A stretch of DNA of 64,000 bases, from positions 45,694,001-45,758,000 of the forward strand of contig OZ024752.1 in the NCBI GenBank assembly GCA_964016885.1, written 5' to 3'. The DNA comes from Eledone cirrhosa (lineage: Eukaryota). Both the position numbers and the translations under genes were made by a program. This document shows positions 36,648-61,166 of this stretch, in pieces; within the stretch, counting starts at the first letter, position 1, and every line of letters begins with the position of its first letter. The notes under the pieces are model-generated. The model was given only the letters and a program-made list of their open reading frames with translations. It was not told the DNA's origin and did not search any database.

Positions 36648-36852
36648 AACAAAGAAAGTGTGGTAAGGAACCAGGTGGACGATAAGGCACCAGAGTAATC
36701 GATACTTAGGGTAGTAAAGGGGGTAATAGGAAAAGAGTCAGAACCCCCGACAGCTGAGCTCCGGCGGTCGTTTCGACAGCTAGATCCGAACGTTCGGATC
36801 TCGCTGTCGAAACGGCCGGAGCTCAGCCGTCGGGGTCCTGACTCTTTTCCTA
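36648..36852 (-). mobile_element. Family F fold-back mini-element in (TA)n
   Basis: Palindrome centred on GATCCGAACGTTCGGATC; arms contain GAAACGGC-CGGAGCTCA-GCCGTC-GGGGTC. Confidence 0.85.
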
Positions 36853-36926
36853 TATATATATATATATATATATATATATATATATATATATATACTTTTT
36901 CCTATATATATATATATATATATATA

Positions 36927-37122
36927 TAGGAAAAAGTATGACCCCGACGGCAGAGCTCAAGCCGTTTCGACGGCTATTTCTGGAAATAGTCCAGAAATAG
37001 CCGTCGAAACGGCTTGAGTTCTGCCGTCGGGGTCACACTTTTTCCTATTTCCCACTCTACTACCCTAAGTATTGAGTACTCTGGTGTGTTATGGTCCATC
37101 TGGTTCCTTACCACAATTCCTT
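36927..37122 (+). mobile_element. Family F fold-back mini-element in (TA)n
   Basis: TAGGAAAAAGT..GACCCCGACGGCAG..TTTCTGGA / TCCAGAAA..CTGCCGTCGGGGTC..ACTTTTTCCTA palindrome plus tail AAGTATTGAGTACTCTGG. Confidence 0.85.
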
Positions 37123-37989
37123 ATATATATATATATATATATATATATATAGACGAGGTTTAGTATTAATTATATTTCCATTTGCTCACATTACTCACTC
37201 AATAAGATAAGGTATGAACTTTTATCGAGTAAAACTTGTCTCAGAGTTCTAACAAAGTGTATATTCACAACATGGCGTTTGTATATATAAATATCTTTGG
37301 TTTTAATAAAAAATATTTTACTTTACATCAATCACTACCGCTTCCCGTGTTACATGAATGGGAGATAATTAATTTCCGGTCAAGATATTCTAAATTAAAA
37401 CCTTGGCACCCTCATCTCACCCCAACCCACCCCACTTTACAATGTATCCTTATTCTGTATAGTTGAAAAATAAATCGATACATCTTAATTTCATGCACTA
37501 TTGTATTTAGGGAACACAGCATCGTCCATGAATGATGCATTTCTGCGATTACCTTAGAAACGGTACTCAAAAGGGATGAATGGAAATTGAATGTAGCCAT
37601 CTTTTTTTTTTGTTTTTGTTTGTTTATTTGTTGTATCTTTATTCTTAGAATAACCTTTTCTACCTTGCAATGAACAGTAAGAAAATTAGTAGACAACTTA
37701 AAGTACATTGACCATAAATATAAAAATACTTATTTATTGTAGCTCTTCTCCCTCATTATATAACTGTTGACGCAGGAAATCACACACACACACATATATA
37801 TATATATATATATATATTATATATTTATCTATATATCTTTTTCCAATCTTCTTCTCAACAAGGAAGATGAAAAAAACTTACCTCAACACTTAATTTTAAA
37901 TCTTTAATTTTTAGTTTTTAATCCTTATTAATTCTCTTTAATTCTAATACTCAACATTTGATAAGATAAATGTTACTAATACATCGTAT

Positions 37990-38116
37990 TAGAGTAAACT
38001 GGAGCAACGTGAAATAAAGTATCTTGCTCAAGGAAACAACACATCACCTGGTCTGAGAATTGAACTCACAACCTTTCGATGGCAAGCCCAATGTTCTAAC
38101 CACTAAGCCATCCGCC
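37990..38116 (-). mobile_element. SINE family 2, 5' part
   Basis: Reverse of GGCGGATGGCTTAGTGG..GAGTTCAATTC..CCTTGAGCAAGATACTTTATTTCACG. Confidence 0.75.
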
Positions 38117-38643
38117 TTAATTCATTGCCTAGCAATGGCCATGATATCTGGAAGCTTAAAAAAACATCTCTAAAACATTCTTAAGATTCAAACAAATAAT
38201 AAACGATTCCACAAGACACGACGGAAATTTCCTTTGCCACCGGGGAGATGGGTGGTCAAAATAAACACGAAATTAAGGATGGAAAAAAAAAAAAAAGACA
38301 AACTTACATACATATTGAAAGCATAGTGGGAAAATTATCAATTATTATCCGTTTTAAAGCTGTGAAGCAGATTTTAAAAAAATCTTTAAAATATGTTTAA
38401 AAAAAAAAACACTGAAAAAATATTATTTTCAGTTAGACAGAAGAACAAGTATTTCTTGAAGATTCTTCTCCATGTGAATAGAATGACGGAAAAGCCTAAC
38501 AGAGGAGAAGGTGCCGTGAACGTAAAAGAGGTCAGTTGTATTGGCAGACATAATAGAATCTAATGAAGTCGTCTGTATCAATGAAACGCCATCTTAGCTT
38601 ATTCAATACAGCGACAAAAATATATAGCATATTGATTATGGCG

Positions 38644-39095
38644 TTTGTTGTTGTTGTTGTTGTTGTTGTTGTAGTAGTTGTTGTTGTAGTAGTTGTTGTA
38701 GTTGTTGTTGTTGTTGTAGTTGTAGTAGTTGTTGTTGTGTTGTAGTTGTTGTTGTTGTAGTTGTTGTAGTTGTTGTAGTTGTTGTTGTAGTTGTAGTAGT
38801 TGTAGTTGTTGTTGTAGTAGTTGTTGTTGTGTTGTAGTTGTTGTAATTGTTGTTGTTGCAGTTGATGTAGTTGTTGTTGTAGTTGTAATTGTTGTTGTAG
38901 TTGTTGTTGTAGTTGTTGTAGTTGTTGTTGTAGTAGTTGTTGTTGTGTTGTAGTTGTAGTTGTTGTTGTAGTTGTTGTTGTTGTTTTGTTGGTTTTATTT
39001 ATTTCTTTGCTCTTGTTATCGTTTGTGTTTTGTGTGTGTATTGTTGTTGTTGTTGTTGTTGTTGTTTTGTTTTGTTTTGTTTTGTTTTGTTTTAT
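38644..39095. repeat. (TTG)/(TAG) compound microsatellite
   Basis: Direct reading. Confidence 0.9.
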
Positions 39096-40409
39096 TTTGT
39101 TAATATATTTTATGAAAACATTAAAGAAGAGGCAAATGAAGAAAATAAGAGAAATAGAGGAGGAGGAGGAGTGGGTGAGAAGAAGAAGAAGAAGAAGAAG
39201 AAGAAGAAGAAGAATGAAATTTGCTAATGAAGCTATTTGTTCTTGCCAAAATTCCCGTTATTGACTGAAAGGTTGGTGATAATATATTTATAGGGACGAT
39301 TGTCTCCCCCTTGATATTACCACTTGTTGAAGCCTTTCTCTTTATCCACGGTGAACTAAATTTATTGCTGTTGTCTATATTCTATTTTATACTATAAATG
39401 GTTTCTAAATTAGACTCAAGACCATTATTTTCTATGGAAGGTGAAAGTCGTTTAAATCGACCCAGTACTACAATACTTATGTTTTATAAGGAAAGATAAA
39501 AGATAAAAAGGGAGGGTTTCCCTCGGTGGGGTTTGAATTGAACCCAGGACTTAAAATGCCGAATCAAATGCTACAAAACCTATTGCTCGGAGTTCAAATC
39601 CTGCTGAGGGTCGATTACAGGGTCGATAAAATAAAGTACCAGTAATGCACTGGGGTCGATTTAATCAAATTTTAGAGAGACTAAGTGAGAGTGATAGACA
39701 GAGAGAGAGAGAGAGAGAGAGAGAGAGAGAGAGAGAGAGAGAGAGAGAGTGAGTGAGAGTGATAGAGAGATAGAGAGAGAGTAAGTGAGAATGAGTGAGA
39801 GATGGGCTCCCCCAGGTTTTAAATATCCAAGACACACCATGTCTCGGAACAGCGCCCCTACGATTCCAGCAAAGCAACAGTTAAAAGCTCTTTACTTATC
39901 TATTGCTTTGGCTTCTCGATAAATTGGCTGAATACATTGTTGGCGGACTTAGTACCTTGTAGTGTTTAGTTAACCCACCTTATTTTTCGAATCCCTTCCG
40001 TGGTCCACTTTTCCATCAATAGGATTATCCGTGTCTGTCACTCCCCTAAATTTTAGATTTTTGTGTTTTTATTAGAAATCTGTTGTATTTAAATAGCTTT
40101 ATATTGTTTATTCTGATTCCCATTAAGCTCCCCTCTGCTTATCGTCCTTTCAGGCCTTGATAAAATAAGTTGCAATCAAATATTGCCGATTAGTAAATCG
40201 ATCACTTCCACTATATTAGCCCTCATTACTGCAGCATTATATAAAATCAATATCCTTGAACTTCAATTAGTGTCAGTCAAGTACCTAGGTTCAATAAAAT
40301 AATTCATGCCATCTACTTTTTACAAAAATAAACCCAACCTTTGTCTTTATATATGTTGTTTATCATTATTGCATGTATTTATTTATTTTTATTTGTTTAT
40401 ATATATATA

Positions 40410-59604: not shown

Positions 59605-59722
59605 TAGTTCAAATTCCGCCGAGGTTAACTTTGCCTTTCAACCTTACGGGGTAGATATAATAAAGTACCAGTAATGTACTAGGATAATTGCTGGCCTTGT
59701 GCCAAAAGTAGAAACAATTATT
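59605..59722 (+). mobile_element. SINE family 1, 5'-truncated
   Basis: GTTCAAATTCCGCCGAGGTTAACTTTGCCTTTCA...GCCTTGTGCCAAAAGTAGAAAC. Confidence 0.85.
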
Positions 59723-60164
59723 AATAATTATCAATTAATGTATATCGTGCAATGCCTTTACGTGAACAATTTTTTTTAAAGTGAGGAATGACTGTGCACT
59801 GAGCCAATCCCACTCTCTGAGCGACAGTAGCTATAACCTGAAAAGAAGAAAGGATCAGCATCATCAGTAACTACTGAGCCGCAGGTTTTATGTCGGAGTT
59901 ATCCCAGTTTCCTGAGTTTTCTTCTCCTAGAAGAATTCCTGCGTAGTCAGTTTGATGATCATGTGACTTCACAGGATCTAATCAGATCCTCTGTAACATA
60001 AGAATATGTGTTCTGTTATTAATTCTGGCAATGTTACACAAATATGACACTCCCAAGTATAAATATATATATATATATATATATATATATATATATATAT
60101 ATATATATATATATATATATATAAAATATATATATAAATAAATATATATATATATACATATGAA

Positions 60165-60331
60165 ATAAAGGTTAAGACAGAGGTTATATAATCGTATTTA
60201 ATAAATATACGTATTTCTACGACACCAATATATATATATATATATATGATCGTACATTAGCTCCATAGTGGTGTCATAGGAATACGTATATTTAATAAAT
60301 ACGATTATCTAACTTCTGTGTTAACCTTTAT
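60165..60331. mobile_element. Fold-back element (family K), ~63-bp inverted arms, with 3' half of a hammerhead-like motif
   Basis: 60165-60227 mirrors 60269-60331; minus strand GAAA-T ACGT A-TA. Confidence 0.65.
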
Positions 60332-60753
60332 ATATATATATATATGATTTTATAAAACACACACACACACACACACACACACACACACACACACACACAC
60401 ACACACACACACACACACACACACACACACACACACACACACTGGTGCCATCACAACGTCTTGACAATGATTTCATAAAGTTAATAATAAATAATATAAA
60501 ATTGTCGGCTAAGCTTTCAGATTTTATAAAGAATTTCACAGTTGGTTGAACTGGCAATAATGTAGTTGGGATAGGTAACTACTGAATAATGTAGGATATT
60601 TAGGGTTGGATATGATAGGGGTGGGGATTGGGGGGTGGGAAGTGGTGTGGGGGAGATGGGGGGGGGGTAGGCAGAGGTGGTGGCTCTTGTTAGAGATGGA
60701 GGTGGTGTTAGTGGTGCGGTTGGTGTTAGCTTCATTCAAAGGAAATCATCTGG

Positions 60754-60802
60754 CTTTCCTGATGATTTCCTTTGAATGAAACAGTTCTAGCCCTGTAGAA
60801 GG
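60754..60802 (+). ncRNA. Type I hammerhead motif (family A) with 20-bp upstream fold-back (60731-60750)
   Basis: CTTTC-CTGATGA-TTTC CTTT GAAT-GAAACAG TTCTAGCC CTGT-A-GAAGG; helix I differs in sequence from other copies but still pairs. Confidence 0.8.
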
Positions 60803-60973
60803 CATTTCTATATAAAATGATATATATATATATATATATATATATATATATATATATATATATATATATATATATATATAGGTATACACATATATTTGTG
60901 TATACGCCGTATGTATATATGTATATAAATATATATATATATATATATATATATATATATATATATATATATA

Positions 60974-61166
60974 TAGGAACGAGTAGGACCCCGACGGCTG
61001 AGCTCAAGCCGTTTCGACGGCTAATTCTGTCCAGAATTAGCCGTCGAAACGGCTTGAACTCAGCCGTCGGGGTCCTACTCGTTCCTATTACCCACTCTAC
61101 TAACCTAAGTATTGAGTACTTTGGTGCGTTATGGTCCATCTGGTTCCTTACCACATTTCCTTAGTT
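60974..61166 (+). mobile_element. Family F fold-back mini-element in (TA)n
   Basis: Near-perfect palindrome 60974-61087 centred on AATTCTGTCCAGAATT plus AAGTATTGAGTACT tail. Confidence 0.85.

What the first reader, a model, noticed from the sequence alone, without database searches (positions are those of the whole stretch)
36648..61166. Family F: every hairpin apex falls in the presumed ribozyme helix II, deleting CUGANGA
Seen: five full copies (36648, 36927, 40410, 42566, 60974) and fragments contain GAAA-CGGC-loop-GCCG-TC-GGGGTC, a helix III plus GUC site. All full copies fold back about 5-20 nt upstream of GAAA, and none retains CUGANGA. Family B (13693) and family K also break in or near helix II. 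Inference: cDNA self-primes on the ribozyme's own hairpin, so RNA structure determines the inversion point and produces MITE-like palindromes by retrotransposition.
Basis: inference. Interest (0 to 1): 0.7.

Follow-up and report, generated by a model that had tools for sequence, protein, structure and literature searches.

The report
Penelope hairpins mark RNA start site

Summary
In detail: five head-to-head copies, all ending 0-20 nt upstream of GAAA, none with the 5' ribozyme half. Family F is the end of a Hydra-type Penelope-like element; an intact parent (RT + GIY-YIG, 715 aa) was found. Its hammerhead folds but has a variant core (UUGANAA or CUGAGAA), not CUGANGA. The pile-up is real (163 of 184 sampled arms stop by -22; over 52,000 arms genome-wide). 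All three limits sit at a pyrimidine-A, two with a TATA box 29-30 nt upstream, and 5,050 arms carry a non-parental G there. Best reading: two independently primed cDNAs run off the capped RNA 5' end and are end-joined. No RNA data confirm the start site. The layout is published; this scan already reached the same reading on other DNA, including this genome.

The parts
36648..36791 (-). Family F (F3 lineage) tailed arm; ends 17 nt upstream of GAAA (36774)
36792..36853 (+). F3 tail-less arm; starts 17 nt upstream of GAAA (36809); blunt head-to-head join
36926..36984 (-). F2 tail-less arm, ends at -16
36987..37125 (+). F2 tailed arm, starts at -19 after a short insert; ~80-nt tail then (TA)n
40409..40472 (-). 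F2 tail-less arm, ends at about -20
40472..40607 (+). F2 tailed arm, starts at -13 (1-nt overlap)
42566..42707 (-). Tailed arm, ends at -18 (the predicted A+1 of the RNA)
42708..42755 (+). Tail-less arm; matches from GAAA (42711), probably from -15 with a 12-nt internal deletion
   Evidence: deletion is inference
60973..61029 (-). F1 tail-less arm, ends at -14
61029..61167 (+). F1 tailed arm, starts at -17 (shared G); helix III, GUC site, helix I 3' strand, tail
43757..43817 (+). Single tail-less F3 arm, not inverted
47828..47888 (+). F3 tail-less arm reaching -17/-18, joined to a ~15-nt remnant of a tailed arm
28448..28487 (+). Tail-only fragment of family F
13527..13866 (.). Comparison: family B insertion; tailed arm (-) ends in helix II, tail-less arm (+) keeps CTGATGA (13766) and starts 70 nt upstream of it
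52575..52775 (.). Comparison: GATTCC-CTGATGA family hairpin; both arms keep CTGATGA (52704 -, 52720 +); one arm starts with non-parental G before the predicted A+1

Best explanation
Family F hairpins are short head-to-head insertions of the hammerhead-and-tail end of a Hydra-type Penelope-like retrotransposon, and they likely arise when both DNA ends of one cut in (TA)n prime reverse transcription at two fixed sites on the element's RNA, both cDNAs run off the RNA's predicted capped 5' end, and host end-joining links them. Shown: the parent element, the two fixed 3' ends (+42 and +121 from GAAA), one of each per hairpin, independence of the two arms, a hard upstream limit at -18 to -22, and that this region is the 5' leader of the ORF (ATG 232 nt downstream of A-18). 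Inferred: that the limit is a Pol II transcription start (initiator-like T[T/C]AGT, TATA-like box at -29 in one lineage), that the extra G is a copy of the cap, that both cDNAs use one RNA molecule, and that trimming plus microhomology joining spreads the ends over -12 to -18. The start happens to lie inside helix II in this family, so the stubs lack the 5' ribozyme half simply because the RNA began downstream of it.
For: Parent: L207 = (TA)n, inverted tailed arm, partial copy, hammerhead+tail, open 715-aa RT/GIY-YIG ORF, 3' UTR, tail-less end, (TA)n; L006 shows the same tail-to-ORF link. Two arms: 66 of 68 close pairs are tailed + tail-less; in 60 pairs scored strictly the tailed arm is longer in 28, equal in 14, shorter in 18; 13 of 77 tail-anchored arms stop inside +29..+100, most of them joined to a tail-less arm that holds sequence they lack; single non-inverted arms also stop at -17..-22 (L032, L043, L108, L128, L196, L238). 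Same source: a variable 10-nt block is identical in both arms in 33 of 52 ungapped pairs against 6.7 in shuffles. Limit: 163 of 184 F1/F2/F4 arms are short, 133 of the 163 end at -12..-22; the uncapped walk put 3 of 173 arms at -23..-29. Genome counts: 52,348 at -8, 33,083 at -17, 26,181 at -18. Non-parental G at -19 in 5,050 arms against about 850 A (4 of first 100 of 21,131); 17 of 30 inspected G cases do not come from the partner arm by a simple join; both arms carry it in several loci (e.g. C1:79590543/79590569). Non-parental T runs of 4 to about 20 in 2,676 arms. L294 carries 257-nt units that start at this point and run through the tail into the ORF start. Other families: GATTCC-CTGATGA family, 54 of 62 arms do not pass CCC-A 6 nt before CUGAUGA, and its long copies keep TATAAATA about 30 nt upstream across four diverged spacers; family B, 8 of 16 anchored arms stop at TTC-A 69 nt before CUGAUGA. 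Published support: PLE RT starts at two internal RNA sites that define the tail and extends both DNA strands (PMC11167929); extra G marks cap copying in L1 (PMC11702581).
Against: No RNA evidence for the start site was obtained. The cap-G signal is moderate: in the local sample G follows 7 of 18 arms ending at -18 but also 8 of 30 ending at -17; 13 of 30 inspected G cases can be partner-derived; T is the commonest base at -19 (73 of first 100) and there is no G excess at -23 (3 of first 100), so ends at -19..-22 are explained only by a second start or by added A residues. A TATA-like box was seen in F4 and the K-like family but not in F1, F2, F3 or B, and such a box occurs by chance at 1-11% of positions. 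The shuffle mixes lineages of different age, so it shows same lineage, not same molecule. A few apex sequences recur. About half the sample is anchored on a -8 pattern from one chromosome end.
Confidence: 0.7

Rival explanations
1. Two primed cDNAs as above, but the RNA 5' end (or RT stop) at -18..-22 is made by nuclease cleavage or a protein/structure block inside helix II, not by transcription start.
For: In family F the limit lies in the inner stem/loop of helix II; helix II is conserved by covariation across lineages; F1-F3 lack a clear TATA box; T runs could be RT slippage at any RNA end.
Against: Two other families pile up outside helix II at pyrimidine-A sites, one under a conserved TATA box; the G excess at -19 suggests a cap; a structural stall would be expected at the 3' foot of a helix, not 12-22 nt inside it (inference).
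Confidence: 0.12
2. One reading: one cDNA folds back on the ribozyme's helix II and primes its own copy.
For: Apex lies within helix II; self-priming was proposed for PLE palindromes in PMC3846280 (Discussion passages); some apices are perfect palindromes.
Against: 0 of 68 hairpins keep the native loop; no consistent longer arm (28/14/18); arms hold sequence absent from the partner; single arms stop at the same place; long copies invert far from the ribozyme; other families turn outside helix II.
Confidence: 0.04
3. The hairpin is itself a self-spreading non-autonomous unit (MITE- or SINE-like) copied from a few masters, with apices decaying after insertion.
For: Very high copy number; some apices recur (3 of 68 share one; 8 of 30 in the G set share one); the initiator-like motif lies at the stub's edge, so an internal promoter is possible as in D. 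virilis Penelope (PMC2377424 passages).
Against: Most apices are unique, with blunt joins, 1-6 nt overlaps or templated inserts; at least four lineages each match their own long parent; arms reach but do not pass the same limit; L294 links the arm to ORF sequence; most hairpins are trimmed past A-18.
Confidence: 0.07
4. The stubs are failed 'strong-stop' transfers: the ribozyme cuts the 3' repeat, all cDNAs start near the RNA 5' end and must jump to the 3' end through a ~41-nt terminal repeat, as in LTR elements.
For: Geometry fits (start at -18, predicted cut at about +23, initiation sites at +42/+121); L294 and two contig joints show jumps from this point to downstream RNA; L207 is longer than one unit.
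Against: Long arms pair with long arms: about 12 long-long loci, 3 long with a cut tail, 1 long with a start-site arm (my reading of 56 loci, many without a visible partner); independent 10-15% transfer would give mostly long-short pairs. F1/F2 cores carry a C3-A8 mismatch; ribozyme cutting is not needed for PAc in vitro (PMC11167929).
Confidence: 0.07

Closest known systems
Hydra clade of C-terminal-EN Penelope-like elements (Craig et al. 2021, PMC8557442 section 11; Hydra-1_Obim in File S1)
   Same: Single ORF RT then GIY-YIG; DKT; CxCX5C linker; no CCHH; CxxC and CxH near the C-terminus; (TA)n target; hammerhead at the repeat.
   Different: RWR in place of RWK; unit 3.1-3.5 kb against 'generally <3 kb'; hammerhead core U3-A8 or C3-A8 with long helices II and III rather than canonical; tail about 80 nt. 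Not placed on a tree; not compared with Hydra-1_Obim.
PLE insertion layout with inverted 5'-truncated pLTR, palindromic junction and one-sided tail (PMC3846280; PMC8557442 fig. 2)
   Same: Same head-to-head layout, tail on one arm only, partial tandem before the ORF.
   Different: Here the minimal stub is the dominant product (about 89% of sampled arms), with a sharp upstream limit; the data favour two primed cDNAs over the self-priming proposed in PMC3846280.
PAc (Poseidon, Anolis) two-site internal RT initiation (PMC11167929)
   Same: Two fixed start sites define the tail; both DNA strands are extended; AT-rich target; ribozyme cutting not required.
   Different: That paper (parts 1-2 of 4 read) does not address inverted stubs or run-off at the RNA 5' end.
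L1 twin priming and cap-derived extra G (PMC11702581 passages)
   Same: Both ends of the break prime on one RNA; inversion joined with microhomology; extra G at a complete 5' end.
   Different: In L1 the second primer anneals at variable internal sites and the two cDNAs cover adjacent, non-overlapping RNA; here both start at fixed sites and copy the same 60 nt, giving a palindrome.
U3-A8 hammerhead variant of Schistosoma Cercyon PLEs (PMC4209133)
   Same: U3-A8 covariation in the core (F4, F4b lineages); motifs often in opposite-strand pairs.
   Different: Family F has a stable helix III and a long helix II, not a minimal motif; F1/F2 have C3 with A8.

Membership tests
Hydra-clade PLE | Single ORF, RT followed by C-terminal GIY-YIG endonuclease | tested here: met
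   L207:5079-7223 open, YRDDG then VIY..YIG; motifs read by eye, Pfam gave no hit
Hydra-clade PLE | DKT, CxCX5C linker, no CCHH, CxxC and CxH motifs | tested here: met
   HSDKTG, CNCPDRSIC, one C between VIY and YIG, CNLC, CKH
Hydra-clade PLE | N-terminal RWK motif | tested here: inconclusive
   RWR at the expected place
Hydra-clade PLE | Insertion into (TA)n | tested here: met
   112 of 121 tail ends followed by TA-type repeats
Hydra-clade PLE | Clusters with Hydra RTs on a tree | not tested
   no reference sequences fetched
EN+ PLE insertion layout | Inverted truncated copy with tail on one end only | tested here: met
   66 of 68 pairs; long pairs likewise
Canonical type I hammerhead | Core CUGANGA (C3-G8) | tested here: not met
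   11 of 97 CTGANGA hits are parent-type, single-base variants, against 1,228 CCTGARAA copies; long arms in sample: TTGAGAAG 7, TTGATAAG 5, CTGAGAAG 3, TTGAAAAG 2, other 6
U3-A8 variant type I hammerhead | UUGANAA core, three helices, GAAA, GUC | tested here: met
   F4/F4b: fold, covariation; not met for F1/F2 (C3-A8)
U3-A8 variant type I hammerhead | Self-cleavage | not testable with these tools
   only 2 of 77 tailed arms end near the cut site
MITE | Terminal inverted repeats shared with a DNA transposase element; uniform internal sequence | tested here: not met
   arms derive from an RT element, tail is outside the repeat, apices vary
Non-LTR retrozyme | Tandem units each with a complete hammerhead | tested here: not met
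   stubs are inverted and lack the 5' core; definition from bioRxiv 10.64898/2026.07.22.740005 part 1
Pol II start site | Capped RNA 5' ends at the site | not testable with these tools
   indirect only: extra G, initiator-like motif, TATA spacing

The most novel reading that the evidence does not exclude
Penelope-like elements integrate by obligatory two-ended priming at two fixed RNA sites, and in this genome the main product is a pair of 'strong-stop' cDNAs copied from the mRNA's own 5' leader: tens of thousands of hairpins form a fossil cap map of each family's transcription start, and in family F that start lies inside the ribozyme, so the promoter position switches the ribozyme off in the 5' repeat while leaving it whole in the 3' repeat.
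Probability: 0.55. Interest if true: 0.65.

Novelty: new member of a known kind. Interest (0 to 1): 0.5.

Why it matters
How Penelope-like elements make their inverted repeats and one-sided tail is stated as open in PMC3846280 and PMC8557442; self-priming is the published guess. These copies give counts that separate the models and favour two-ended priming, tie the two in vitro start sites of PMC11167929 to the inverted layout, and give a base-level prediction for the transcription start in three families that a single cap-mapping experiment can test. They also warn annotators that an abundant class of 'MITE-like' or 'miRNA-like' hairpins in this kind of genome are retrotransposon stubs.

Tried and rejected
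Rfam scan: 411 matches at E up to 1, the 150 listed are microsatellite or hairpin look-alikes below gathering score; no hammerhead family among them. Pfam: no hit for three protein queries. RNA search: no RNA holder listed; laying contigs of four runs of unknown kind showed a tenfold depth step at 4847 in the largest run, but these may be the same source, so it is not used as independent support. A first estimate of a 98% cliff (1,081 of 52,348) was dropped: it counts one lineage only; the sample gives 21 long of 184 and one search agrees with 10-15%. The lenient extension over-called some ends (27/12/27); one search's histogram had an indexing slip at the F1/F2 variable base; both were replaced. 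An early idea that arms come from different RNAs (GAACTC/GAGCTC mismatch) was dropped as query bias. Splice-acceptor origin of the limit: rejected, no shared upstream exon in any stub. Ribozyme cut as end point: 2 of 77. Second capped start at -22: no G excess. Twin start hairpins (lead from earlier notes): a bulged hairpin folds 5 nt after +121 in L207, but after +42 the fold took another register: inconclusive. L183 and L184 were nested insertions, not full-length copies. Luense et al. 2017 on PLE hammerhead variants was not held; not used.
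Full report
Observation. Each is a 55-65-bp-armed palindrome in (TA)n with an extra ~80 nt on one side. Positions below count from the G of GAAA. The ten arms end at 0 to -20. None has the 5' half of a hammerhead. The genome is 3.0 Gb, AT- and microsatellite-rich; a cephalopod is my inference.

Parent. A search with one arm gave 30 loci; 28 could be oriented and 5 continued upstream into shared non-inverted sequence. That sequence leads to a GIY-YIG/RT frame. L207 is a whole element: (TA)n, inverted tailed arm, partial direct copy, hammerhead and tail, an open 715-aa ORF, 3' UTR, hammerhead without tail, (TA)n. 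L006 also runs from tail into ORF. The protein has DKT, a CxCX5C linker, no CCHH, and CxxC/CxH, the marks of the Hydra clade (PMC8557442 section 11). These were read by eye; Pfam found nothing and no tree was made. The tail is therefore also the 5' leader of the next ORF; the ATG lies 232 nt after A-18.

Ribozyme. The core is not CUGANGA. Long arms in the sample carry TTGAGAAG 7, TTGATAAG 5, CTGAGAAG 3, TTGAAAAG 2, other 6. UUGANAA is the U3-A8 variant described in PMC4209133; CUGAGAA has a C3-A8 mismatch. Of 97 genome hits with CTGANGA upstream, 11 are parent-type by my reading, against 1,228 with CCTGARAA. Activity is untested; 2 of 77 tailed arms end near the GUC site.

The pile-up is real. 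I sampled 994 kb chosen without regard to the family (window, neighbours, spaced 10-kb pieces) and 511 kb anchored on a 24-mer starting at -8. Of 204 arms, 184 are F1/F2/F4; 20 F3 arms were set aside for the strict count. Of the 184, 21 are long and 163 short (unanchored: 4 and 49); 133 of the short arms end at -12..-22. Exact genome counts fall from 52,348 at -8 (slightly different anchor) to 33,083 at -17 and 26,181 at -18; 7,428 have A, C or G before the parental ATTT at -22, many of them long copies.

Self-priming on helix II fails. It predicts that the ~40-nt native loop stays at the apex: 0 of 68 hairpins keep it. It predicts that one arm is a copy of the other: but the tailed arm is longer in 28, equal in 14 and shorter in 18 of 60 pairs, 13 of 77 tailed arms stop within +29..+100 and most are joined to tail-less arms reaching -8..-19, and lone arms of either type stop at -17..-22. 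Yet 66 of 68 pairs have exactly one tail, and both arms share a variable block in 33 of 52 ungapped pairs against 6.7 in shuffles (16 gapped pairs left out; shows lineage, not molecule). Long copies have the same one-tail layout with junctions at -56 to -1200. This is what two primers at two fixed sites on one RNA would give; PMC11167929 shows two such sites and extension of both strands for another PLE. Junctions are blunt, overlap by 1-6 nt or hold templated inserts, typical of end-joining (established knowledge).

Why the limit. Several signs point to an RNA 5' end. (a) The conserved motif there is T[T/C]AGTY, initiator-like (consensus recalled), with TATTTAAA 29 nt upstream in F4. (b) 5,050 arms have a non-parental G before A-18 against about 850 with A (4 of first 100); 17 of 30 inspected are not partner-derived; L1 gains such a G from the cap (PMC11702581 passage). 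(c) 2,676 arms have four or more T where the parent has three, up to about 20, as if A residues were added at run-off. (d) L294 has 257-nt units from this point through the tail into the ORF, so the template there was the ORF-linked leader. (e) Two other families in the window pile up elsewhere: in the GATTCC-CTGATGA family 54 of 62 arms do not pass the A six bases before CUGAUGA, and long copies keep TATAAATA about 30 nt upstream across four diverged spacers (arms were anchored on the core, so retention of it is by design, but both arms keep it in window 52704/52720); in family B 8 of 16 anchored arms stop at an A 69 nt before CUGAUGA. A Penelope promoter in the repeat, upstream of the ORF, is known (PMC2377424 passages).

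Against. No RNA data were obtained. The G excess is modest in the local sample (7 of 18 at -19, 8 of 30 at -18); 13 of 30 G cases may be partner-derived; there is no G excess at -23 (3 of 100); T is commonest at -19. F1-F3 and B have no clear TATA box, and TATA-like boxes occur at 1-11% of positions by chance. A cleavage or block inside helix II is not excluded for family F alone. A retrovirus-like transfer through a short terminal repeat fits the geometry but long arms pair mostly with long arms.

Literature. Seen: PMC3846280 passages (self-priming proposed, layout described); PMC4209133 parts 1-2 of 4; PMC11167929 parts 1-2 of 4; PMC8557442 passages, section 11 and File S1 rows; PMC2377424 and PMC11702581 passages; bioRxiv 10.64898/2026.07.22.740005 part 1 of 5. 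Seven searches listed no paper proposing run-off at the capped start for PLE palindromes; I saw listings only and subscription papers are not held.

Earlier scan notes. My reading was written down, which returned nothing. Searches then showed that the scan had reached the same reading on other pieces of this genome and in other genomes; these are unchecked notes and not counted as support.

Verdict. Interest 0.5.

Noticed in passing
L207 (G000:C1:11224001-11234000) 2207-8026: Intact-looking Hydra-type element with open 715-aa ORF and 97-99% identical repeats; recent insertion, longer than one unit, with a ~430-nt deletion in the last 3' UTR.
   Followed up: yes
L294 1430-2160 (G000:C1:27009483-27010170): Hairpin plus tandem 257-nt units from the predicted start through the tail to 23 nt into the ORF, with identical junctions: template jump or small circular RNA.
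   Followed up: partly
L303, L287, L290, L299: Long non-parental T or (ATTT)n runs at the arm 5' end, resembling reiterative addition by a telomerase-related RT.
   Followed up: partly
window 2616-2744, 3451-3589, 16510-16660, 46734-46946, 52575-52775, 60726-60817: Second Penelope-like family with minimal canonical hammerhead; same tailed/tail-less hairpins, limit under a conserved TATA box.
   Followed up: yes
window 13527-13866, 15957-16183, 32171-32211: Family B stubs; limit 69 nt upstream of CUGAUGA.
   Followed up: partly
window 36648-37125; L129; L184: Copies insert into the (TA)n flank of earlier copies, building nested clusters of several families.
   Followed up: no
window 44599-44667 and 51365-51405: Weak (75-80%) matches to the family F 3' UTR about 380 nt upstream of the ribozyme; older relatives.
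   Followed up: no
L031 1-5274 (G000:C3:6091001-6096274): LINE-like element with two ORFs (zinc-knuckle ORF1; endonuclease/RT ORF2, 873-aa open stretch) next to the Penelope copy.
   Followed up: no
L207 4909-4945 and 4987-5015: Similar bulged-hairpin-like sequences 5-6 nt after both fixed 3' ends; only the second folded as expected.
   Followed up: partly
window 12511-12545, 25701-25725, 5410-5500, 20504-20570, 28682-28750: Further CTGANGA...GAAA motifs of other repeat families.
   Followed up: no
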